Source of the DNA: Fidelibacterota bacterium UBA2242
GTDB taxonomy: Bacteria > Fidelibacterota > UBA2242
Length of the DNA: 64,000 nt
Assembly (NCBI GenBank): GCA_002347855.1
Contig: DDYE01000017.1
Coordinates: forward strand, 188,839 to 252,838
Direction of reading: 5' to 3'
In this document: one piece after another, positions 1 through 10,377 of the stretch
Layout: each line of letters opens with the position of its first letter
Numbering within the stretch: the first letter of the stretch is position 1
Program-made: the position numbers and the translations under genes
Notes under the pieces: generated by a model
The model's database searches: none
What the model saw: only the letters and a program-made list of their open reading frames with translations
Told to the model about the DNA's origin: nothing

Positions 1-2695
1 TGAGTTAAAGAATCGCTCTGATTATGAGTTTGCAAAACAGAAATTTGAAGAATTATGGGAAAATGCTGTTGATGTTAGCGAAAGATATATTCAGACAATA
101 AATGAAAGAACCTGGCTTAATCAAAATATTACCCCTTACGAACTTTATCTTAAATTTTTATACGAGTATTTTAAGGATGAACTCTCCAGAACTGATGAAG
201 TTTTTACAAAATATTTGCCTTCCGATTTCAAAAGGTTTGAATATCAAGAACAGGCAGTTCTGAATGCAAAGAAGATATTAGAAGAATATGGTGGAGCTTT
301 TATTTCTGATGTAGTGGGACTTGGTAAAACCTATGTTTCTACTATGCTTGCAGGACAGCTTGATGGTAGAACCCTTGTTATAGCACCGCCTGCGCTTCTT
401 AATAAAAATAATCCTGGCTCCTGGCCAAATGTTTTTTCCGATTTTCATATTCCAGCTGAGTTTGTATCAATTGGTAAACTTGATGAGGCAAAAAGGTTAG
501 TAGAGCTAAGAGAATATAGAAACATTATTATAGATGAAGCACACCGTTTCAGGACAGAAACAACTATCAGTTATGAAGACATTGCTGAAATTTGTCGCGG
601 GAAAAGAGTAATTTTGGTCTCTGCAACTCCTTATAATAACTCACCAAGAGATATCCTTGCACAGATTAAACTTTTCCAGAATGTAAGAAAAAGCACTATC
701 CCCGGCGTTTCTAATCTTGAGGAATTCTTTGGAAGACTTGTGGGAAGATTAAAAGAGGTCGACCGTCATAAAGATTATAATAAGTTCCTTGATATAACAA
801 AAAGTAATGCAAAAGAAATCCGTGATAGAGTATTGAAATATTTGATGGTTAGAAGAACAAGAACTGAAATTGAAAAATATTTTGCCGAGGATTTAAAGAA
901 AAACAAGGTTCAATTTCCGGAAGTAGAAGACCCAAAGCCATTTTATTACCAGTTAAACGATGATGAAGACAGAATCTTTATGGAAACTGTAAGGTTAATA
1001 ACTCAGAATTTCAAATATACCCGTTATATGCCATTACTTTATTTAACGAAACCCATTTCTCAACTGGAAGAGCAATCGCAAAGAAATATGGGCGGTTTTA
1101 TAAAAGTCCTCCTTGTAAAACGCCTTGAAAGTAGTTTTTATGCATTTAGAAAAAGTATAGACAGATTCATCCATTCCTATGAAATGTTTATTAAGGAATA
1201 TGAAAAAGGAAATGTATATATAAGCAAAGGATACATAAACAAAATTTTTGAGCTTTTGGAACAAGGAGATGATGAAGCAGTCCAGAAACTTATTGAAGAA
1301 GGAAAAGCAGAAAAATATGAAAGCAAAGACTTTAGACCTCATTTTGCGACGGACCTAAAAAATGACTTTGAAATTTTAAGACAGATAAAATCTATGTGGC
1401 AATCTATAAAAAGGGACCCCAAACTTGAAACCTTACTGGGAAATTTGAAAAAACACAATATCTTGAGAAATAAGAAAATAATTATCTTTACAGAGTCAAA
1501 AGAGACAGCAGAGTATTTGAATGAAAATATAAATAATGATGTAGGTAAAATTGCCCTTCTATTTCATGGCAATTCGCCAGAAGTAGTTAGAGACAGAGTT
1601 ATAGAAAATTTTGACGCAAGGGCAAAAATTAAAAAAGATGATTATAAAATACTTGTCTCAACCGAAGTTCTTTCTGAAGGTGTTAATCTTCATAGATCAA
1701 ACATAGTAATAAACTACGATATACCCTGGAATCCAACAAGGTTAATGCAAAGAGTGGGGAGAATAAACCGTATAGATACACCATTTGACAGAATTCATAC
1801 ATTTAACTTTTTCCCGACAAGACAGGCAGATTCTGAAATTGAACTTACAAACATTGCTCGTTCAAAAATAGAAGCATTTTTAACATTGCTCGGCGGGGAT
1901 AGTTCAATCCTCACTGAAGGAGAACCTGTTTCCTCTCATGAACTATTTGATAAACTACTTTCAAAGAAAACTATTGCCGAAGATGAGGAAGAAGAAAGCG
2001 AACTCAAGTATTTAAGAATTATTGAGGATGTCCGCAATAAAAATCCCGAACTTTTTGAAAGGATAAAGCATCTTCCTAAGAAGGCTCGTTCTGCAAAGAT
2101 ATTTTCTCAATCTCTAAAAGATATTGCTTCTGCTGATTCTTTAATCACTTTCTTTAGAAAGGGCAAGTTAATGAAATTCTTCCTTTCAAATAAAAGTTCT
2201 ACTGTTGAACTTGATTTCTTGGCGTCTGCAAAGATTCTTAAGAATTCATCAGATGAGAAAAGAACAAAACTACCTCTTGAGGTTTACTATGAACTCCTTG
2301 ATAAAAATAAAACAGCGTTCTTTAATGCAACTATTGAAGAAATTATAAGCACTCATAAGCGTGGTGGTTCAGATAGTCAAACCAGATTGTTAAAAATTCT
2401 AAAAGCAACACAAAAAAACAGCAAGCAACTGACTGAAGAGCAGGAAGAATACCTTAAAAAACTCATAACCCGGCTTGAAGAAGGCGCTTTACCAAAACAA
2501 ACAGTAAAGAAAACCCTCAATGCACTGAACAAACTCGCAAAAGATATACAAAATCCATTAAAAGTAATTGGAGTTTTACAAAGAGAAATCTCATTTACAT
2601 TTCTAAAAAGCCACTATGCAGAAACTTCTGCTATAACAGAAGGAAAAAGAGAGGTTATATTATCACTTTATTTAGCGGAGGAAAGCGATGAATAG
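1..2695 (+). CDS. SF2 helicase (DEAD/DEAH-box, SNF2/Res-like), 5'-partial; reading frame is open to position 2 so the N-terminus lies upstream of the window
   Basis: Walker A GLGKTY, DEAH box IIDEAHRF, motif III SATP, C-terminal helicase lobe with QRVGRINR; the annotated TTG at 215 is internal because the frame continues without stop to the window edge. Confidence 0.8.
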   Translation, partial: ELKNRSDYEFAKQKFEELWENAVDVSERYIQTINERTWLNQNITPYELYLKFLYEYFKDELSRTDEVFTKYLPSDFKRFEYQEQAVLNAKKILEEYGGAFISDVVGLGKTYVSTMLAGQLDGRTLVIAPPALLNKNNPGSWPNVFSDFHIPAEFVSIGKLDEAKRLVELREYRNIIIDEAHRFRTETTISYEDIAEICRGKRVILVSATPYNNSPRDILAQIKLFQNVRKSTIPGVSNLEEFFGRLVGRLKEVDRHKDYNKFLDITKSNAKEIRDRVLKYLMVRRTRTEIEKYFAEDLKKNKVQFPEVEDPKPFYYQLNDDEDRIFMETVRLITQNFKYTRYMPLLYLTKPISQLEEQSQRNMGGFIKVLLVKRLESSFYAFRKSIDRFIHSYEMFIKEYEKGNVYISKGYINKIFELLEQGDDEAVQKLIEEGKAEKYESKDFRPHFATDLKNDFEILRQIKSMWQSIKRDPKLETLLGNLKKHNILRNKKIIIFTESKETAEYLNENINNDVGKIALLFHGNSPEVVRDRVIENFDARAKIKKDDYKILVSTEVLSEGVNLHRSNIVINYDIPWNPTRLMQRVGRINRIDTPFDRIHTFNFFPTRQADSEIELTNIARSKIEAFLTLLGGDSSILTEGEPVSSHELFDKLLSKKTIAEDEEEESELKYLRIIEDVRNKNPELFERIKHLPKKARSAKIFSQSLKDIASADSLITFFRKGKLMKFFLSNKSSTVELDFLASAKILKNSSDEKRTKLPLEVYYELLDKNKTAFFNATIEEIISTHKRGGSDSQTRLLKILKATQKNSKQLTEEQEEYLKKLITRLEEGALPKQTVKKTLNALNKLAKDIQNPLKVIGVLQREISFTFLKSHYAETSAITEGKREVILSLYLAEESDE

Positions 2696-5600
2696 GGAGC
2701 AGGCAAAAAATATAATAACTGAAACCCTTGAAAATTCTTTTGATAAAAGTAAGTTCATCTATTTTCTCAAAAACCTCTTAAAATCTTTTGAAGAGAAATC
2801 TTCTGTCTATCAAGGTAACCATATCCCTGATGCCTTTGAACAATACATAAGTTCGTTAGAAAGGATTGGTAAATATATTTGTGATGAGAAAGAAATTGAT
2901 TTACTGATTGTCCAGCTAAAAAGAGAGACCTCCCTTGAGCGTGCAAGAACAATGCAGAGGAATTTTGTTGCCTGGTACCTTAAGGGAAGTAGAGGCGGAA
3001 AATTAAAAGATGCTGCGCTTGTTGCCTTTGTTTCACCCACGAGCGAAGATTGGCGTTTTTCCCTTGTAAAGATGGATTATCGCTTTGAAGAAACACCTTC
3101 CGGCAAAGTAAAAATTAAAGAAGAATTCACGCCAGCAAGAAGATGGTCTTTTCTTGTAGGTAAAAATGAAAAAAGCCATACCGCCCGGAACAGATTTATT
3201 CCAATACTTGAGGATGATGAAAAGCGACCTACTTTGGAAGATTTAGAACAGGCGTTTAGTGTAGAAAAAGTAACGGACGAGTTCTTTAAATCCTATAGAT
3301 ATGCTATAAATGAAGTAATAATAAAATCATTGAACAAAAAGGTAGACCACCAAATCAAACATTCATTTGCCCAGCAACTCCTTTCCAGAATTTTATTTAT
3401 CTATTTCCTTCAAAGGAAAGGATGGCTTAAATGGAAAAACTACGAACAGGATAAAAGTTATATTAAAAACCTCTGGCTAAAATATAAATCCTACAACTAT
3501 GAAAATACTTTTTATTCCCATTGGCTTAGCAGTCTATTCTTTGGTGCGTTTAATAAAAAATCTCAATTTATAAATCCTGATCTACCCGATGAGATAAGAG
3601 AATCTTTTATACAAATGCCTTTTCTTAATGGTGGGTTATTTCACAAAAACGAACTTGATGAAATAGGTTTTGATGTGCCCGATAATGTCTTTGAATGGCT
3701 GTTTGAGCCAAATGAAACTGACGAAGATTTGCACAAAGGATTCCTTGAAGTATTTAACTTCACAATTGACGAATCAAGCCCCGATGATGTAGAAGTTGCT
3801 GTTGACCCGGAAATGCTGGGAAAAGTGTATGAATCCCTGATTAACGAAGAAGAACAAGGTTTTGCTGGAATATTCTATACTCCTCTTGTGGAAATTGATT
3901 TTATGTGCAGATTATCTCTTGTGGAATATCTTTGCACCAGAACCCAAACAAGTAAACAGGATTTAATTGAACTGGTTTTTACTCTACCCGCCATTGATAG
4001 TTATCAAAACATAGAGAACCTAAGGAAAATCAAAAAAGCTTTAGATGATGTAAAAATAGTTGACCCTGCTGTTGGCTCTGCATCTTTCCTTGTAGGAATG
4101 ATGAATATTTTGGTTGAATTACACTCTGCATTAACAAAAAGAATAGAAGGTAAAGAAGAAAATCTTTTTGCACTGAAACAAAAAATAATACTTGAAAACC
4201 TTTACGGTGTTGATGTTAAAGACTGGGCAGTAATGGTTGGTGAACTTCGTCTCTGGCTTTCCCTTATTATTGAAACCGACGAAAAATTTATGGACATCTA
4301 CACTAAACCTCTTCTGCCTAATCTGACCTTTAAAATTCGTCAGGGCGATTCACTGGTTGAAGCAATAGGCGATGTATTTATTAACCTGAGAGGGAATGCT
4401 CTGAAAACAATTCCCAAATCTATTCAGCAAAAAATCTCTGAACTCATTGACAAAAAGGCTGAATTCTTCTCAGGTAAACGAAGTGCTGATTTGAAGGAAC
4501 AACACGAAATAGAAAATATGGAAGCAGGAATATTCAAAAAAATTTTACAGGTAAAAGTGGATGAGTTAAAAGGAAAGTTAACAGAGAAAAATAGATTATT
4601 AAAACAATTGAAAGGCTCAAAAAATCTTTATGGAGAAGAGGACGCAAAATCAAAACAAGAACAAGAAAAACTTTCTAAGGAAATTGAGCAACTGGAAAAT
4701 GAACTAAATAAATACCAAAAAGCAATCGATAGTATTGGTCAAAAAAGCAAAAAAGATTACTTCCTCTGGGAACTTGACTTTGCTGAAGTGTTTGCTAAAA
4801 ATGGCGGTTTTGACATTGTAATCGGTAATCCACCTTATGTGCGACAGGAACTCATTGCTCCACCACTTGAAAACGAAAAAGATTATTCTCCTGAGGAATG
4901 GCGTGAGTTAAAAAGACAGTATAAAGAAAAACTTATTCAAGCAACCCAAAATGTATGGCAAGATGTAAAAAGAATCGATAAAAAGAGCGACCTCTATGTT
5001 TACTTTTACTATCAAGGATTATCTCTACTCACCGACAACGGTATTTTCTGCTTTATTAACTCCAACAGCTGGCTGGATGTGGGTTATGGTGCAGGGTTGC
5101 AGGAATTTCTACTTAAAAATATGAAGCCAATTTATATCATAGACAACATTGCCAAACGCTCGTTTAAACAGGCAGATGTTAATACCGTAATTGTGCTTAT
5201 ACAAAAACCATCTGCAAGGACTGTAGGGGCTCAAAATTTTGAGCCCGAGCTATATAAACCAGTAAAATTTATCGCCTTCAAAAAGCCATTTGAAGAGGTA
5301 GTAGCAAACGGCTGTTTGCTTATGAAAGAGATAGAAAACACCACTAAGCCAGTGTTTAACAACCCGGTTTACAGAGTCTTTCCCAAAACCAAAAAAGAAC
5401 TCCTTGAAGAGGGAGTGGAATATCCCGACGAATCAGAATTAGAATTAAACCAAAGCCCCGAACAGCTTCCTTATGTTGGTAATAAATGGGGCGGTAAATA
5501 CCTGCGCGCGCCGGAGATTTATTTTAAGATTCTGGAAAAGGGAAAAGTAGGGGCGAAAGGCCGTTCGCCCCTACTGGTGCGATTGGGAGATATTGCTGAA

Positions 5601-6470
5601 GTGCGACGGGGATTTACCACAGGTGCGAATGAATTCTTCTATCTTAAACCAGTTGGAATGACGGTAAAGGAAGTGGTAAAGATAGCAGAAAAAAATCCAC
5701 AAGCACTCATAAGAGTAAAGAATGGTGCTGGCTGGGAGGGTGAGATTGAGGCAGAGTTTTTAAAGCCTGTGATTAAAAGCCCAAGAGAACTAAAAACCAT
5801 CATGGTAAGGATTGAAGACCTGAATTATCTCGTATTTATGTGCCACAAGAGCAAGAAAGAACTCAAAGGGACAAAGGCGCTGGAGTATATTGAGTGGGGA
5901 GAGAAGCAAAAATTCAACCAAAGACCGACTTGTAGAAGTAGGAGCTTGTGGTGGGATTTGGGGGAGTTATATTTTTTGATAATCTCGAAAAGATTTGTTG
6001 ATGAGAGTTTTTCATACTTTTATAATCAAAATAATTTTTTTGTTGGAGATACATTTTTCATTATTAATACTATAAATCCATATGATGTTTTAATAACTTT
6101 AAACTCAATTATCGGAAGTCTATTTACTGAAATTATTGGAAGAAAAAATATGGGTGAAGGTGTTCTTTTAATATATGGTCCTGAAATCTATAATATACTT
6201 ACTATTAAAAAACTTGACACTACTGATGAATTAAAACAAAAAGTCTTCTTTTCAATAATTAATAAAAATGTGTCCTCAATATTTAATGAAATATCTATAG
6301 ACAAGAATCATCCCATTCGTGAGCAGGAGCCCAATCCCTTGCCCGACCGTAAGGAGCTGGACGATATTGTTTTTGATGCTCTTGGCCTCACCGAAGAAGA
6401 ACGCAAAGAAGTTTACTGGGCAGTAGCGGAATTGGTAAAAGCAAGATTAGATAAGGCAAAGAGTGTGTGA
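2688..6470 (+). CDS. N6-adenine DNA methyltransferase, gamma class, Eco57I/PglX-like with C-terminal TaqI_C-like specificity region
   Basis: FYTP motif, SAM motif I VDPAVGSASFLVGM (about nt 4062), coiled-coil insert, motif IV GNPPYV (nt 4827-4838), C-terminal ...LGLTEEERKEVY... helix; ATGA start/stop overlap with helicase. Confidence 0.85.
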   Translation: MNREQAKNIITETLENSFDKSKFIYFLKNLLKSFEEKSSVYQGNHIPDAFEQYISSLERIGKYICDEKEIDLLIVQLKRETSLERARTMQRNFVAWYLKGSRGGKLKDAALVAFVSPTSEDWRFSLVKMDYRFEETPSGKVKIKEEFTPARRWSFLVGKNEKSHTARNRFIPILEDDEKRPTLEDLEQAFSVEKVTDEFFKSYRYAINEVIIKSLNKKVDHQIKHSFAQQLLSRILFIYFLQRKGWLKWKNYEQDKSYIKNLWLKYKSYNYENTFYSHWLSSLFFGAFNKKSQFINPDLPDEIRESFIQMPFLNGGLFHKNELDEIGFDVPDNVFEWLFEPNETDEDLHKGFLEVFNFTIDESSPDDVEVAVDPEMLGKVYESLINEEEQGFAGIFYTPLVEIDFMCRLSLVEYLCTRTQTSKQDLIELVFTLPAIDSYQNIENLRKIKKALDDVKIVDPAVGSASFLVGMMNILVELHSALTKRIEGKEENLFALKQKIILENLYGVDVKDWAVMVGELRLWLSLIIETDEKFMDIYTKPLLPNLTFKIRQGDSLVEAIGDVFINLRGNALKTIPKSIQQKISELIDKKAEFFSGKRSADLKEQHEIENMEAGIFKKILQVKVDELKGKLTEKNRLLKQLKGSKNLYGEEDAKSKQEQEKLSKEIEQLENELNKYQKAIDSIGQKSKKDYFLWELDFAEVFAKNGGFDIVIGNPPYVRQELIAPPLENEKDYSPEEWRELKRQYKEKLIQATQNVWQDVKRIDKKSDLYVYFYYQGLSLLTDNGIFCFINSNSWLDVGYGAGLQEFLLKNMKPIYIIDNIAKRSFKQADVNTVIVLIQKPSARTVGAQNFEPELYKPVKFIAFKKPFEEVVANGCLLMKEIENTTKPVFNNPVYRVFPKTKKELLEEGVEYPDESELELNQSPEQLPYVGNKWGGKYLRAPEIYFKILEKGKVGAKGRSPLLVRLGDIAEVRRGFTTGANEFFYLKPVGMTVKEVVKIAEKNPQALIRVKNGAGWEGEIEAEFLKPVIKSPRELKTIMVRIEDLNYLVFMCHKSKKELKGTKALEYIEWGEKQKFNQRPTCRSRSLWWDLGELYFLIISKRFVDESFSYFYNQNNFFVGDTFFIINTINPYDVLITLNSIIGSLFTEIIGRKNMGEGVLLIYGPEIYNILTIKKLDTTDELKQKVFFSIINKNVSSIFNEISIDKNHPIREQEPNPLPDRKELDDIVFDALGLTEEERKEVYWAVAELVKARLDKAKSV
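5547..5574. repeat. 28-bp REP-like palindrome copy 1 (GTAGGGGCGAAAGGCCGTTCGCCCCTAC, one arm mismatch), in frame inside the methyltransferase gene (encodes VGAKGRSPL)
   Basis: read directly; 14-bp arms. Confidence 0.9.
6403..6470. repeat. direct repeat copy A: last about 20 codons plus stop of the methyltransferase gene
   Basis: about 68 bp, repeated at 8755-8822 with about 4 mismatches. Confidence 0.9.
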
Positions 6471-6492
6471 AAAAAAATAAATAGGAGGTTAT

Positions 6493-8724
6493 ATGATAAC
6501 AAAAATAAAAATTGAGAACGTAGCAACTTATAAAGAAGCCTTAGAAATTGATAATATAAAGAAAGTTAACTTTTTCTACGGTAGTAATGGTAGTGGTAAA
6601 ACTATTTTATCAAAACTAATTGCTAATTCAGATTCATATAGTGATTGTAATATTGAATGGCAAAATAATACAAAACTAAAGAGAATTGTTTATAATGAAG
6701 ATTTTGTTAGGTCAGTTTTTTACCAAAACGAAAATTTTCCGGGTATTTTTACTATGGGAGAGGGAGCAAAAGATATTGAAGTGCAAATCGACCAGAAAAA
6801 TCAAGAAAGGGAAAAAATTCAAAATGAACAAACGAGTTTAAATAATACACTGAAACAAAAAAAGGTAGAATTAAATAATAAATCAGATGAATTTAAAGAA
6901 TTATGCTGGAGAAAAGTATATCAAAAATATCAAGATGATTTTACTGAAGTTTTCACAGGGTACCGTAATAACAAAAAAAATTTTGCTGAGCGTTTATTGA
7001 ATCAGTATGAATCAAATGAATCAGTATTAAGAAAAAATGAATACCTATTGGACCTATACAATCTTTTATTTAAAGAAGAATTAAAATCGATCAATCTATT
7101 AAATTTAATTTCAGATGAAGTGATTAAAGAACTACAAAAATTGGAGACAAATGAAATATTAAAAACCGAAATAATCGGAAAGAAAGATGTTGATATTGCT
7201 CGAATGATTGAAAAATTACACAACCATGATTGGGTAAGACAAGGAAAGAAATACTATGAAGAAAATTATGATGAAGAGAAAGGCTCTTATATATGTCCTT
7301 TTTGTCAGCAAGCAACAACAGAAGATTTTAAACAAAAACTTGAAGAATATTTTGATGAAACTTATGAAAAACAAGTAAAACAATTAGATGAGTTTATAGA
7401 AAAATATAACGAACTAAATAATAAATTGAATAAATACTTTGATGATTTATTAAATACTAAAGATAATAAATATTTTGATGCAAAAAAAGATGAATTAAAA
7501 AGCCAAATTGAAATCATTAAAGAGAAATTGAAAAACAATATTTTTCTGATAAATAAGAAAAGGGACAAGCCCAGCGAGGATATATCAATAGAATTTTTAA
7601 CTGATGTTATAGGTGAATTAAATAATTTGATTAATTCTATAAATGAAGAAATAAAAAAATATAATGAAATTGTAAATAATCAGCAAAATGAAAAAAACAA
7701 ACTTATTTCTGAAATATGGAAATTTTTCTGCAATGAAATTAGTATGGATATTAAAAGTTATTTGAGTGGTAAAAATAATATCGAGAAGGCGATAGACGAT
7801 ATCAAAAAACAAGTTGAAGAAAAAGAGACCAAAATAAAATGTATTACAAATGAAATATCAGAATTAGAAAAACAAATTAAAAGCATAAAACCAACAATTG
7901 ATGCAATAAATAAAGTTTTAGATAAGTTTGGTTTTAGGGGATTTAAATTAGCTCCAACTGAAGATGAAAAACACTATAAAATTATTAGAGAAGACGAGAC
8001 TTCTGCAAAAGAAACATTAAGCGAAGGAGAAAGAAACTTTATTGTATTTCTTTATTTTTATCATTTAATTCAAGGAGCATTGAATCCAGAAGAAAATATA
8101 AACGAACCTAAAGTCGTAGTTTTTGATGATCCAGTTTCAAGTCTTGATTCTGATGTATTGTTTATTGTAGCAACTTTAATTAAGGGTATTATAAAAGACA
8201 TAAGAGAGGGAAAAGGAAATATCAAACAGGTTTTTCTTTTAACACACAATGCCTATTTTCATAAAGAAGTCACATATTCATCAAGTCGGGATTATGGTCA
8301 AAATAAAAGAAATGACACAATGTATTTTATTATTAGAAAAGTAAACGGGATAAGTAAAATCGAAGAATATGAAACAAATCCCATTAAAACCACTTATCAG
8401 TTATTGTGGGATGAAATAAAAAATGGAAGAATAGACTGTGTATCTCTTCAGAATTCAATGCGGCGTGTTATAGAATTTTATTTTAATACATTGGCTGATT
8501 TAAAAGAAGAAGAGTTAATAAACAAATTTAACAATGAAACAGATAAGAAAATTTGTCGTTCATTAATTACCTGGATTAATGTTGGTTCGCATGATGCCTT
8601 TTTTGATATTGATTATTCGCCAAGTCCAGATGAAATTTCTAAATATAAAGATATATTTAAAAAGATATTTGAAGAAACTGGTCATATTTCACATTACAAT
8701 ATGATGATGGGGATTCCTGAATAA
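6493..8724 (+). CDS. AAA_13-type ABC ATPase, RloC/PrrC-like (putative anticodon nuclease)
   Basis: AGGAGG RBS at 6483-6488; Walker A GSNGSGKT (6580-6603); long coiled coil with CPFC zinc-hook-like motif (7294-7305); ABC signature LSEGE, Walker B VVVFDDP, H-loop LLTHN; C-terminal R-x3-E (RRVIE) followed 39 aa later by H (VGSHD). Confidence 0.6.
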   Translation: MITKIKIENVATYKEALEIDNIKKVNFFYGSNGSGKTILSKLIANSDSYSDCNIEWQNNTKLKRIVYNEDFVRSVFYQNENFPGIFTMGEGAKDIEVQIDQKNQEREKIQNEQTSLNNTLKQKKVELNNKSDEFKELCWRKVYQKYQDDFTEVFTGYRNNKKNFAERLLNQYESNESVLRKNEYLLDLYNLLFKEELKSINLLNLISDEVIKELQKLETNEILKTEIIGKKDVDIARMIEKLHNHDWVRQGKKYYEENYDEEKGSYICPFCQQATTEDFKQKLEEYFDETYEKQVKQLDEFIEKYNELNNKLNKYFDDLLNTKDNKYFDAKKDELKSQIEIIKEKLKNNIFLINKKRDKPSEDISIEFLTDVIGELNNLINSINEEIKKYNEIVNNQQNEKNKLISEIWKFFCNEISMDIKSYLSGKNNIEKAIDDIKKQVEEKETKIKCITNEISELEKQIKSIKPTIDAINKVLDKFGFRGFKLAPTEDEKHYKIIREDETSAKETLSEGERNFIVFLYFYHLIQGALNPEENINEPKVVVFDDPVSSLDSDVLFIVATLIKGIIKDIREGKGNIKQVFLLTHNAYFHKEVTYSSSRDYGQNKRNDTMYFIIRKVNGISKIEEYETNPIKTTYQLLWDEIKNGRIDCVSLQNSMRRVIEFYFNTLADLKEEELINKFNNETDKKICRSLITWINVGSHDAFFDIDYSPSPDEISKYKDIFKKIFEETGHISHYNMMMGIPE

Positions 8725-8822: not shown

Positions 8823-8878
8823 AGAAAAATGTTAATTCAAAAATTAAAATGAAATTTGAAATAAAATCGCAGAACAAA

Positions 8879-9487
8879 ATGAAATTCAATCCTGAAACCC
8901 ACCACCGCCGTTCTATCCGATTAAAAAATTATGATTATATCCAACCCGGTGCATATTTCATAACCATTGTAACCAATAAACGACAATGTTTGTTTGGCAA
9001 AATTGAAAATGGTGTAATGCGGTTGAATGAATTTGGGGAAATTGTTCGTGATGAATGGTTTAAATCAAATGAAATCCGGCGGGAAATTGTATTGAACGAT
9101 TATGAATTTGTTGTAATGCCCAATCATATTCACGGAATCGTATGGATTGTTGAAAACAATGACATGGGGACAAACGGTAATATCATTGTAGGGGCGAACG
9201 GCCGTTCGCCCCTACAAAAACAATCAAACAAAAACCAACCACCAACACATTCGGATTCCCCATTGATACGAATGTCCCCAAAATCAATTTCATCGTTTGT
9301 TGCCGGGTTCAAATCCGCCGTAACAAAACAAATAAACCAATTACGCCAAACGCCGGGCATTCCCGTTTGGCAACGCAATTATTACGAACATATCACCCGC
9401 AACGATGATGAATTACAACGAATTCGTGAATACATAATCAATAATCCAATAAATTGGGAACTGGACGAAAATTATGAACGAAATTGA
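8879..9487 (+). CDS. REP-associated tyrosine transposase (RAYT), IS200-like Y1 HuH family; probable start at second Met (ORF begins 8849)
   Basis: N-terminal HHRRSIRLKNYDY, HuH motif MPNHIHGIVWI, catalytic Tyr motif WQRNYYEHITRND; contains the perfect palindrome at 9188-9215. Confidence 0.8.
   Translation: MKFNPETHHRRSIRLKNYDYIQPGAYFITIVTNKRQCLFGKIENGVMRLNEFGEIVRDEWFKSNEIRREIVLNDYEFVVMPNHIHGIVWIVENNDMGTNGNIIVGANGRSPLQKQSNKNQPPTHSDSPLIRMSPKSISSFVAGFKSAVTKQINQLRQTPGIPVWQRNYYEHITRNDDELQRIREYIINNPINWELDENYERN
9188..9215. repeat. 28-bp REP-like palindrome copy 2 (GTAGGGGCGAACGGCCGTTCGCCCCTAC, perfect), in frame inside the RAYT gene between HuH and Tyr motifs (encodes VGANGRSPL)
   Basis: read directly; perfect 14+14 inverted repeat. 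Confidence 0.9.
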
Positions 9488-10377
9488 ATTGCATAAAACA
9501 TTAAACCAATTAGGCGAGGAATGGCTGAGTTCAAAAATTCAGCGGATGCGTAATCTATTGAAGATTGCCTTACCCGATGAAGCACTTTATCGCGAAATAA
9601 TGCTCTCCCTTGGCTATCCAAAAAACAAAGTTCAGTTTTTAGAATTGGCGCTCCTTTTACCCTACAAAGAAATTCAAAAACTCAAAACCCAACCACTCAT
9701 CGAGAAAGCACTGTTGTACAGGGCAGGATTTACACAAGACGCTTCTAATCTTCCGGGAGATTTTGACACCTCACTAAAACTTAACAATTCATACTGGACA
9801 TACAAATCAATTCGACCAGCGAACTTTCCAGATAAAAGAATAAAAGATTTTTCAGATTTGCTTTTTAAGACAACAGAAAAAGGAATATACAATTATTTCA
9901 AAAAGCAGATAGAGAAAAATTATACAGAGGTATATGATAAAACATCAGCAAAGAAAATAGTTGAAAAAATTATGTCGTTTAAAGGTATTGGGATTAGCAG
10001 AAAGAGAGAAATGTTTTTTAATATAATACTACCATTCTTTTTGTCGGATGAATCATTTAGTAATTATCATAGTTTTTTAATAAAACTTTTTGAAACACAC
10101 GCTTCCCTTGATGAAAACAGTAAAATTAAAAAATTTTATAAATTGGTAGGGGCGAACAGCCGTTCGCCCCTACGTCAACCAAATGAAAAAATTCAAATTT
10201 CAAATGCTAAGGAATATTTTGGTGCAATTAAATTTAGTGGTGGATAAAATCATTTCCGTAAAAAGGCAAAATAAAAACGCTGACACAAGTAACTGGGAGC
10301 GAGAGATAGACCAGGTAGTTTATAAACTTTATGGTTTGACAGAGACTGAGATAATAATAATAGAGGATTTTAAATAA
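9474..10377 (+). pseudogene. ORF of unknown function split across two frames; C-terminus resembles the terminal helix of Eco57I/PglX/TaqI_C-type modules
   Basis: frame 0 ORF 9474-10247 and frame +1 ORF 10183-10377; deleting the 28-bp palindrome at 10146-10173 joins them into one ORF (...KKFYKL/VNQMKKFKF...EREIDQVVYKLYGLTETEIIIIEDFK). Confidence 0.5.
10146..10173. repeat. 28-bp REP-like palindrome copy 3 (GTAGGGGCGAACAGCCGTTCGCCCCTAC, one arm mismatch) at the frameshift point of the 9474-10377 ORF
   Basis: read directly. Confidence 0.9.

What the first reader, a model, noticed from the sequence alone, without database searches (positions are those of the whole stretch)
6493..8724. RloC/PrrC-like anticodon-nuclease candidate: ABC ATPase with zinc-hook coiled coil and an R-x3-E...H C-terminal triad
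The protein has an ABC-type Walker A, a long coiled-coil insert carrying a CPFC motif (as in the Rad50-like zinc hook described for RloC), ABC signature/Walker B/H-loop, and a roughly 150-aa C-terminal domain containing RRVIE (R-x3-E) followed 39 residues later by His. This mirrors the Arg-Glu-His catalytic arrangement reported for the PrrC anticodon nuclease (spacing recalled from memory). PrrC/RloC are classically kept latent by an associated RM/DNA-modification complex, which fits the position directly downstream of the methyltransferase.
Basis: partly seen in the sequence, partly recalled or inferred. Interest (0 to 1): 0.65.

Follow-up and report, generated by a model that had tools for sequence, protein, structure and literature searches.

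The report
RloC-type anticodon nuclease behind restriction genes
This gene encodes an ordinary member of the known RloC family of bacterial "suicide" tRNA-cutting enzymes, attached as an optional third gene to a two-gene DNA restriction-modification system; the same arrangement was already catalogued in another bacterium in 2008.

Summary
ORF 6493-8724 (+) encodes a 743-aa protein with Walker A, a ~370-aa helical insert carrying CPFC, the ABC signature, Walker B, the H-loop His, and a C-terminal R657-x3-E661-x38-H700 motif. CPFC, RR..E and GSH are invariant in 43 homologues.

The protein matches Pfam AAA_13 end to end (E=1e-173) and PADLOC candidate PDC-S06 (E=7e-254). Homologues are named "wobble nucleotide-excising tRNase" by JGI.

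It is 54% identical over its full length to the 757-aa Petrotoga mobilis SJ95 protein. That protein matches, by organism and length, RloC orthologue #3 of Davidov & Kaufmann 2008, listed there as flanked by a "Type IIS restriction system". It sits in the same trio of genes: PLD-SNF2 helicase, Eco57I-type methyltransferase, RloC-like protein.

In this ≥50%-identity clade, 10 of 11 informative loci are linked to restriction-modification genes. Conversely, none of 80 loci carrying the helicase gave a full AAA_13 hit (31 extend past the methylase). So the gene is an accessory, not a core subunit.

tRNase activity, the fold of the C-terminal domain and control by the neighbouring genes remain untested. 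Verdict: new member of a known kind, low to moderate interest.

The parts
1..2695 (+). 3' part (about residues 195-1091) of a 1091-aa PLDc_2 + SNF2 helicase gene, the presumed restriction/translocase subunit. The window start cuts the gene, so its HKD motif lies outside the window.
   Evidence: The full gene is seen in the identical contigs L001-L003 with PLDc_2, SNF2-rel_dom and Helicase_C domains. Pfam, PADLOC and NCBIfam hits on the in-window part agree. The alignment of four orthologues has an invariant H156-x-K158.
2688..6470 (+). 1260-aa Eco57I/MmeI-type N6-adenine DNA methyltransferase of the Type IIG-like family. It overlaps the helicase gene by 8 bases.
   Evidence: Pfam Eco57I 1.2e-28 and MmeI_Mtase 1.6e-11. 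PADLOC REase_MTase_IIG 2.8e-131. A homologue lies directly after the helicase in nearly all of the 80 related loci that extend far enough.
6483..6488 (+). AGGAGG ribosome-binding site for the RloC-like gene. There is no predicted promoter above background or terminator between the methyltransferase gene and this gene.
   Evidence: Sequence read. The promoter/terminator scan gave counts equal to the shuffled expectation.
6493..8724 (+). RloC-family gene (743 aa): a Rad50-like ABC ATPase with a zinc-hook coiled coil and a C-terminal putative anticodon-nuclease domain.
   Evidence: Pfam AAA_13 1e-173 over the full profile. PADLOC PDC-S06 7e-254. 54% identity to the Petrotoga mobilis SJ95 protein that matches a listed RloC orthologue.
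6580..6603 (+). Walker A / P-loop GSNGSGKT (residues 30-37).
   Evidence: G30, N32, G35, K36 and T37 invariant.
6769..7878 (+). Helical insert (residues 93-462) between the two halves of the ABC head. Long helices at 93-146 and 417-462 flank it.
   Evidence: AlphaFold2 secondary structure. Rad50, SMC and LmuB are the top fold matches.
7294..7305 (+). CPFC (residues 268-271), the putative zinc hook.
   Evidence: C268-P269-F270-C271-Q272 are invariant in 43 homologues. The same C-x-F-C ... L..[HY]F pattern is visible in the RloC alignment of Davidov & Kaufmann, Fig. S1.
8017..8133 (+). ABC signature LSEGE (509-513) through Walker B/D-loop VVVFDDPVSSLD (541-552).
   Evidence: The PDB sequence match to the Rad50 C-lobe covers residues 541-614.
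8245..8247 (+). H-loop (switch) histidine H585.
   Evidence: T584-H585-N586 invariant.
8374..8721 (+). C-terminal putative anticodon-nuclease domain (residues 628-743), with R657/R658-x-x-E661 (nt 8461-8475) and G698-S699-H700 (H700 at nt 8590-8592).
   Evidence: On its own it matches AAA_13 profile positions 612-713 of 713 at 74.5 bits. The triad is invariant. A profile of this domain finds 1397 cluster representatives, and it is C-terminal in ~730-750-aa proteins.

Best explanation
The gene encodes an RloC-family protein. It has a Rad50-like ABC ATPase whose two head halves are separated by a coiled coil tipped with a CPFC zinc hook, followed by a small helical C-terminal domain that carries the Arg-Glu-His anticodon-nuclease triad.

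The mechanism below is inferred from the characterised Geobacillus and Acinetobacter RloC proteins.
- The protein stays latent in healthy cells.
- When phage attack perturbs DNA or the companion restriction enzyme, DNA-dependent ATP hydrolysis in the head, gated by the zinc hook, switches on the C-terminal RNase.
- The RNase cuts tRNA anticodon loops. In RloC it excises the wobble nucleotide, which is hard for phage repair enzymes to reverse.
- Translation stops and the infection aborts.

In this window the gene is the third, probably co-transcribed, gene behind a self-sufficient two-gene restriction-modification module (PLD-SNF2 helicase plus Eco57I-type methyltransferase). It acts as an optional second line of defence.

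Shown here: family membership, motif conservation, operon position, the clade's linkage to restriction-modification genes, and that the gene is dispensable to the helicase-methylase pair. Inferred only: tRNase activity, the trigger, and any physical coupling to the neighbouring enzymes.
For: Family membership:
- Full-length AAA_13 match, E=1e-173, and PDC-S06, E=7e-254.
- Homologues at about 50% identity are named 'wobble nucleotide-excising tRNase' by JGI.
- All three RloC criteria from PMC2610378 are met, and the key residues are invariant.
- 54% identity over 740 residues to the 757-aa Petrotoga mobilis SJ95 protein. It matches, by organism and length, RloC orthologue #3 in that paper's Table S1.

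Structure:
- AlphaFold2 model with mean pLDDT 85.9.
- Rad50, LmuB and SMC proteins are the best PDB folds.
- After in-silico removal of the coiled coil, the protein is collinear with the PrrC profile (positions 25-340 of 372, E=3.4e-15).

Context:
- The gene starts 23 bases after the methylase gene, behind a strong ribosome-binding site, with no terminator in between.
- The same three-gene order occurs in Petrotoga, in P0007, and in Stygiobacter, where a DUF559 gene is inserted.
- Other clade members sit in type I hsd loci, one of them in the order HsdS - AAA_13 - HsdR.

Accessory status:
- None of 80 loci with a 52-83% identical helicase gave a full AAA_13 hit, and the methylase homologue directly follows the helicase wherever the contig extends far enough.
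- In the 31 loci that extend at least 1.5 kb past the methylase, the slot after it holds varied defence-type genes such as KAP NTPase, SMODS and HEPN proteins.
Against: - No nuclease activity has been tested.
- The C-terminal domain alone gives no hit to the PADLOC PrrC profile.
- The loop holding H700 is poorly modelled, with pLDDT below 50.
- I could not obtain the sequences of G. kaustophilus RloC or E. coli PrrC for a direct comparison.
- Walker B has Asp546 where most ABC ATPases have the catalytic Glu. This is invariant in the family, so it is probably a family trait.
- Published work says RloC has its own internal switch and needs no restriction-modification partner (PMC3458546; PMC3874168), so coupling to the upstream genes may be only co-transfer or co-regulation.
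Confidence: 0.8

Rival explanations
1. The protein is an RloC-family member, but its C-terminal RNase has a target other than tRNA anticodon loops (for example mRNA or rRNA), or it cleaves without excising the wobble nucleotide.
For: Only two RloC proteins have been characterised, and they differ in tRNA preference. The window protein belongs to a distinct CPFCQ clade whose identity to GkaRloC I could not measure. HEPN-type RNases as a superfamily have many kinds of target (PMC3710099).
Against: The R-x3-E...SH triad and its spacing fall inside the RloC definition and are invariant. The whole C-terminal domain matches the AAA_13 profile end.
Confidence: 0.12
2. The protein is an integral third subunit of the helicase-methylase restriction system. 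In this reading it is an SMC/Rad50-like DNA-binding ATPase needed for restriction itself, and its C-terminal domain is not an RNase toxin.
For: It is tightly packed behind the methylase in an apparent operon. The same trio recurs in at least four distant lineages. Other defence systems do use ABC/SMC-like ATPases as core parts (fold matches to LmuB, PtuA and AriA).
Against: None of 80 loci with close relatives of the helicase gave a full AAA_13 hit, although the methylase is there wherever the contig extends far enough; 31 of them extend at least 1.5 kb past the methylase. Members of the same ≥50% clade sit in type I hsd loci instead, and one sits beside no recognisable restriction-modification gene. 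The Arg-Glu-His residues are invariant, which argues for catalysis.
Confidence: 0.05
3. It is a generic AAA_13 'conjugative-transfer / plasmid' ATPase with no defence role.
For: tblastn finds AAA_13 relatives on 123 plasmid records, 58 of them conjugative, all annotated only as 'AAA family ATPase'.
Against: The best plasmid hits are 38% identical or less. The gene is chromosomal and sits between restriction genes and a transposase-like ORF. Defence genes are commonly carried on plasmids anyway. No transfer genes lie near it in the window.
Confidence: 0.03

Closest known systems
RloC of Geobacillus kaustophilus HTA426 (804 aa) and Acinetobacter baylyi ADP1: wobble-nucleotide-excising anticodon nucleases (PMC2610378, PMC3458546, PMC3874168)
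   Same: ABC ATPase head split by a coiled-coil/CXXC zinc-hook insert. C-terminal R-X3-E-X36-52-(S)H triad, here X38 (GkaRloC: R692, E696, H737). Same Pfam family. C-x-F-C ... L..[HY]F pattern around the hook.
   Different: Shorter (743 vs 804 aa) and from a distinct CPFCQ subclade. Pairwise identity to GkaRloC was not measured. Canonical rloC is 'rarely' linked to restriction-modification genes, whereas this clade nearly always is. Activity is untested.
Petrotoga mobilis SJ95 RloC orthologue (757 aa; entry #3, Table S1 of Davidov & Kaufmann 2008)
   Same: 54% identity over the full length, with all motifs kept. Identical gene order: PLDc_2-SNF2 (1086 aa), Eco57I methyltransferase (1120 aa), AAA_13. 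The paper already noted a flanking 'Type IIS restriction system'.
   Different: Different phylum and host. In Petrotoga the gene overlaps the methylase gene, whereas here there is a 23-base gap. Neither protein has been tested. The link between P0040 and the table entry rests on organism and length, not on an accession match.
PrrC anticodon nuclease of E. coli (396 aa), embedded in the type Ic EcoprrI hsd locus
   Same: ABC NTPase plus a C-terminal Arg-Glu-His ACNase. Linked to restriction-modification genes. With the insert removed, the window protein aligns collinearly with the PADLOC PrrC profile (E=3.4e-15).
   Different: PrrC has no coiled-coil/zinc-hook insert. It nicks tRNA-Lys rather than excising the wobble base. 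It is silenced by a type I enzyme and triggered by the T4 Stp peptide. Here the partner is a PLD-SNF2/Type IIG-like pair, and the C-terminal domain alone does not hit the PrrC profile.
Rad50/SbcC and the defence ABC ATPases LmuB (Lamassu), PtuA (Septu/retron) and AriA (PARIS)
   Same: ABC head plus coiled-coil architecture. These are the best structural matches in the PDB.
   Different: They lack the C-terminal Arg-Glu-His domain and work with separate nuclease partners.
PADLOC candidate PDC-S06
   Same: Best profile match, E=7e-254 over positions 1-724 of 732.
   Different: PDC-S06 is only a bioinformatic candidate label. I found no paper that describes it functionally. In practice it re-labels RloC-like AAA_13 proteins.

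Membership tests
RloC (Davidov & Kaufmann 2008) | ABC ATPase motifs: Walker A, signature, Walker B/D-loop, switch His | tested here: met
   GSNGSGKT 30-37, LSEGE 509-513, VVVFDDPVSSLD 541-552 and H585, all invariant. The fold matches Rad50 heads.
RloC (Davidov & Kaufmann 2008) | Coiled-coil insert with a central CXXC zinc-hook motif between the ATPase half-sites | tested here: met
   CPFC at 268-271 lies inside the helical insert 93-462. CPFCQ is invariant. Zinc binding itself was not tested.
RloC (Davidov & Kaufmann 2008) | C-terminal Arg-X3-Glu-X36-52-His motif, with Ser often before His | tested here: met
   R657-x3-E661-x38-S699-H700, invariant in 43 homologues.
RloC (Davidov & Kaufmann 2008) | Sequence homology to accepted RloC orthologues | tested here: met
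   54% identity over 740 residues to the Petrotoga mobilis SJ95 757-aa protein, which matches the paper's Table S1 entry by organism and length. Direct comparison with GkaRloC was not possible because the sequence was not obtainable.
RloC (Davidov & Kaufmann 2008) | Wobble-nucleotide-excising tRNase activity switched by the zinc hook and a DNA-dependent ATPase | not testable with these tools
   Needs expression, tRNA cleavage assays and mutants.
PrrC | Protein of about 400 aa: ABC NTPase directly followed by the ACNase domain, with no coiled-coil insert | tested here: not met
   743 aa with a 370-residue insert.
PrrC | Gene embedded in a type I hsdMSR locus | tested here: not met
   The neighbours are a PLD-SNF2 helicase and an Eco57I-type methyltransferase. 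Some clade relatives are in hsd loci.
PrrC | Significant match to a PrrC profile, including the ACNase domain | tested here: inconclusive
   The whole protein scores E=3.1e-12, and the insert-deleted version E=3.4e-15 across profile positions 25-340 of 372. The C-terminal 143 or 173 residues alone give no PrrC hit.
HEPN superfamily (Anantharaman et al. 2013 place the PrrC/RloC RNase domains here) | Helical-bundle fold like that of solved HEPN domains | tested here: inconclusive
HEPN superfamily | R-x4-6-H catalytic motif | tested here: not met
   H700 is preceded by W-I-N-V-G-S, and the nearest upstream Arg (R689) is 11 residues away. The family uses R-x3-E ... S-H instead. The 2013 paper itself calls the PrrC/RloC domains atypical.
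Pfam AAA_13 (PF13166) | Score above the gathering threshold over the full model | tested here: met
   580.3 bits against a cutoff of 36, covering profile positions 2-713 of 713.
Hma system (PADLOC: helicase, m5C methylase, ATPase) | HmaA + HmaB (m5C methyltransferase) + HmaC ATPase | tested here: not met
   Only a partial HmaA hit (8.4e-25) on the helicase. The methylase is an N6-adenine Eco57I type. The AAA_13 protein gives no HmaC hit.
DISARM class 1 | DrmA and DrmB (DUF1998) core, with DrmD, DrmMI and DrmC | tested here: not met
   Only sub-threshold DrmD-like hits (137.6 bits against a cutoff of 610) and DrmMI-like hits. No DrmA or DrmB gene is called in the 10 kb on either side.

The most novel reading that the evidence does not exclude
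This CPFCQ clade may be a functional hybrid between PrrC and RloC. It is a zinc-hook RloC that, unlike canonical RloC, is almost always wired to a restriction-modification module. The module can be of interchangeable type: PLD-SNF2/Type IIG-like, type I, or a fused HsdR-like/M-S pair. The protein would use that enzyme, or the DNA ends it makes, as its trigger. If so, one guard nuclease can read out the state of structurally unrelated restriction enzymes, which points to a common signal such as DNA ends or translocation stalling rather than a specific protein-protein lock.
Probability: 0.25. Interest if true: 0.45.

Novelty: new member of a known kind. Interest (0 to 1): 0.27.

Why it matters
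As it stands, the result is mainly an annotation gain. A gene that NCBI calls "AAA family ATPase" and PADLOC calls candidate "PDC-S06" can be named an RloC-type anticodon-nuclease candidate, and its two upstream genes form a self-standing PLD-SNF2/Eco57I-type restriction-modification pair.

The modest wider point is that this RloC clade is found almost only next to restriction-modification modules of several unrelated types. Meanwhile the slot after the methylase in the helicase-methylase pair holds many different defence-type genes. That makes the locus a convenient natural system for asking what signal links a restriction enzyme to a translation-killing backup. It does not open a new class of biology.

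Tried and rejected
1. Direct comparison with E. coli PrrC or G. kaustophilus RloC failed because neither sequence could be obtained.
   - They are not in the PDB.
   - They are not among the listed homologues or the plasmid hits.
   - The 2008 supplement holds only an OCR-damaged alignment of the coiled-coil region.
   - A search of all held loci with N- and C-terminal profiles found no PrrC-sized relative.
   - Short hits in the 1.84-billion-protein search were N-terminally truncated fragments, not PrrC-like proteins.
3. The Hma system (helicase, methylase, ATPase) was considered because of the gene order. It was rejected because HmaB is an m5C methylase and there is no HmaC hit.
4. DISARM and BREX were considered because of DrmD, DrmMI and PglX partial hits. 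They were rejected because all hits are far below the NCBIfam cutoffs and no core genes are present.
5. The idea that the protein is a core third subunit of the restriction system was rejected by the reverse synteny test.
6. A literature search for 'AAA_13' returned only unrelated papers. A search for 'PF13166' returned nothing useful.
7. The promoter and terminator scan gave only background-level matches.
Full report
**Observation**

The window has an ORF at 6493-8724 on the + strand that encodes 743 residues. Its ATG follows an AGGAGG at 6483-6488 and lies 23 bases after the stop codon of the upstream methyltransferase gene.

- Walker A GSNGSGKT, residues 30-37
- CPFC, 268-271
- LSEGE, 509-513
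- Walker B VVVFDDP, 541-547
- H585 in LTHN
- RRVIE, 657-661 (R657-x3-E661)
- GSH, with H700 39 positions after E661

They are not chance matches. In an alignment of 43 homologues at 38-64% identity, CPFCQ, SEGE, DDP, H585, R657, R658, E661 and G698-S699-H700 are invariant.

An AlphaFold2 model built on that alignment has mean pLDDT 85.9. It shows an ABC head interrupted by a helical insert (residues 93-462) that carries the CPFC. Its best PDB matches are Rad50, followed by SMC heads, Lamassu LmuB, retron PtuA and PARIS AriA. A sequence search of the PDB finds only the Rad50 C-lobe, weakly. No PrrC or RloC structure turned up in the PDB sequence and fold searches.

**What it is**

The protein matches Pfam AAA_13 over the entire profile (E=1e-173, positions 2-713 of 713). 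It also matches the PADLOC candidate family PDC-S06 (E=7e-254). NCBIfam has no specific model for it. Public homologues at about 50% identity are named "wobble nucleotide-excising tRNase" by JGI and "AAA family ATPase" by NCBI.

Davidov & Kaufmann (2008, PMC2610378) defined RloC by three features. These are PrrC-like ABC motifs, a coiled-coil insert with a CXXC zinc hook, and a C-terminal Arg-X3-Glu-X36-52-His motif in which Ser often precedes His. They showed that the triad (R692, E696, H737) is needed for tRNase activity in G. kaustophilus RloC. The window protein meets all three, with X38 and Ser699 before His700.

Their Table S1 lists a 757-aa Petrotoga mobilis SJ95 protein as RloC orthologue #3, flanked by a "Type IIS restriction system". 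The 757-aa Petrotoga mobilis SJ95 protein P0040 is 54% identical to the window protein over 740 residues and keeps every motif. The link between P0040 and the table entry rests on matching organism and length. The zinc-hook alignment in their Fig. S1 also contains a CPFCQ-type sequence.

The relation to PrrC is detectable but weaker. The whole protein hits the PADLOC PrrC profile at E=3.1e-12. When residues 93-462 are removed in silico, the remaining 373 residues align in one stretch to PrrC profile positions 25-340 of 372 at E=3.4e-15. This fits the published view of RloC as PrrC plus a Rad50-like insert.

The C-terminal domain is less well supported on its own:
- The last 143 or 173 residues alone do not hit the PrrC profile.
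- The last 116 residues alone do match the end of the AAA_13 profile, at 74.5 bits.

So the HEPN assignment made in the literature (PMC3710099) could be neither confirmed nor refuted here. A profile of this C-terminal domain finds 1397 cluster representatives among 1.84 billion. Nearly all are at the C-terminus of 720-760-aa proteins, and the shorter hits I inspected are truncated fragments.

**Context**

The window begins inside the upstream helicase gene. In the identical public contigs, that gene encodes a 1091-aa PLDc_2 + SNF2 protein. It overlaps a 1260-aa Eco57I/MmeI-type N6-adenine methyltransferase gene (2688-6470) that matches a REBASE-style Type IIG profile. The RloC-like gene follows, with no predicted terminator or above-background promoter between them. 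The gene is 25.9% G+C, against 34-36% for its two neighbours and 42% for the window.

I collected 11 informative loci in the clade that is at least 50% identical:
- Seven have an Eco57I-type methylase directly upstream: the window itself, L005, L004/L097, L008, L010, Petrotoga L090 and Stygiobacter L094. Five of these also contain the helicase or a helicase match: the window, L005, L090 and L094 have the PLD-SNF2 gene, and L010 has a partial helicase match. In L004/L097 and L008 the contig ends before that position.
- Three lie in or next to type I-like hsd genes. One has the order HsdS - AAA_13 - HsdR, which is the classical PrrC position.
- One has no recognisable restriction-modification neighbour.

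In the wider family (36-43% identity, 79 loci from a species-level genome set) the immediate upstream gene is HsdS in 11, DUF2130 in 8 and an Eco57I-type methylase in 5. This fits the published statement that rloC is only sometimes linked to restriction-modification genes.

**Reverse test**

I collected 80 metagenome loci that encode 52-83% identical relatives of the PLD-SNF2 helicase. A methylase homologue lies directly downstream wherever the contig extends far enough. No locus gives an AAA_13 hit by tblastn. One cut ORF (L140:7721-8680) has an AAA_13-like N-terminus and remains undecided.

In the 31 loci that extend at least 1.5 kb beyond the methylase, the next gene is nearly always on the same strand, and its identity varies widely. 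Examples are KAP NTPases, a SMODS cyclase, HEPN proteins, a radical-SAM protein, a trypsin-like protease and a UvrD helicase.

The helicase-methylase pair is therefore a self-standing module with a variable accessory slot, and the RloC-like gene is one possible occupant. A Type II R-M gene with an adjacent PLD + SNF helicase gene has been noted before (PMC9881135). The general idea of defence genes embedded in or attached to restriction-modification systems is described in a 2024 preprint (10.1101/2024.01.29.577857).

**Mechanism**

This part is inferred from the family, not shown here. In G. kaustophilus RloC the DNA-dependent ATPase activates the nuclease, and zinc-hook mutations short-circuit that switch. 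The enzyme removes the wobble nucleotide by two successive cuts (PMC3458546). In A. baylyi, inducers of double-strand breaks activate the native enzyme (PMC3874168).

The most likely reading for this locus has three parts:
- The protein is latent.
- It is switched on by DNA ends, or by disturbance of the companion restriction enzyme, during infection.
- It then disables tRNAs and aborts the infection.

Whether the trigger is the neighbouring enzyme (PrrC-like) or DNA damage alone (RloC-like) cannot be decided from sequence.

**Rivals**

- A core structural role in the restriction system is contradicted by the reverse synteny test and by the clade's presence beside several restriction-modification types.
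- A plasmid-transfer role has no support beyond distant plasmid-borne homologues.
- A different RNA target remains possible.
- Hma and DISARM were considered and rejected.

**Verdict**

This is a new member of a known family, in a gene arrangement already listed in 2008. Interest is low to moderate. The one mildly unusual point is the near-obligate linkage of this clade to restriction-modification genes of different types.

Noticed in passing
window 1-2695: The window starts inside the helicase gene. The ORF tool's '215..2695, TTG start' is an artefact of that cut. The full gene (L003:1255-4530) encodes 1091 aa with an N-terminal PLDc_2 (HKD) nuclease domain that lies outside the window.
   Followed up: yes
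L099-L178 (80 metagenome loci with the same PLD-SNF2 helicase): The helicase-methylase pair is a widespread stand-alone module. The gene right after the methylase differs from locus to locus (KAP NTPase x2, SMODS, HEPN x2, radical SAM + GMT-wHTH, trypsin-like protease, UvrD, Peptidase_M78/HTH). This looks like a variable accessory-defence slot.
   Followed up: partly
L140:7721-8680: A contig-cut ORF after the methylase has an AAA_13-like N-terminus (profile E=1e-9). It is the only possible exception to the absence of AAA_13 hits in the 80 helicase loci.
   Followed up: no
L013-L087 (AAA_13 relatives at 36-43% identity), e.g. L017:12228-13517: A DUF2130 protein is the direct neighbour of the AAA_13 gene in 8-9 of 79 loci, mostly just upstream on the same strand. 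This may be a conserved two-gene module of unknown meaning.
   Followed up: no
window 8849-9487 and 9474-10247; L005:4137-7958; L008:2-2407: A Y1_Tnp/REP-associated tyrosine-transposase-like ORF (212 aa, below the NCBIfam cutoff) follows the RloC-like gene and overlaps a DUF2851 ORF. Pfam Y1_Tnp hits also occur inside the N-terminal part of the Eco57I-type methylases of two related loci.
   Followed up: no
window 6493-8724 versus the rest of the window: The RloC-like gene is 25.9% G+C, against 34-36% for the two upstream genes and 42% for the whole window. This suggests separate acquisition, or codon usage that keeps expression low, as was remarked for rloC genes in 2008.
   Followed up: partly
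L003, L005, L090, L094 (alignment A4) versus the AAA_13 proteins of the same loci: The helicase is better conserved between these loci (81, 77 and 56% identity) than the RloC-like protein (63, 54 and 52%). The methylase keeps its first ~560 residues but varies in its C-terminal (specificity) part.
   Followed up: no
window 8113-8133 (residues 541-547): Walker B reads VVVFDDP. Asp546 stands where ABC ATPases usually have the catalytic Glu. This is invariant across the 43 homologues, so it is a family trait.
   Followed up: no
L094:10916-11998; L095:11489-14908; L096:5791-7683: Other defence-type genes sit just downstream of clade members: a Fic protein, a SIR2 + DUF87 (HerA-like) pair, and an OLD-like TOPRIM ABC ATPase. 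These are typical defence-island surroundings.
   Followed up: no
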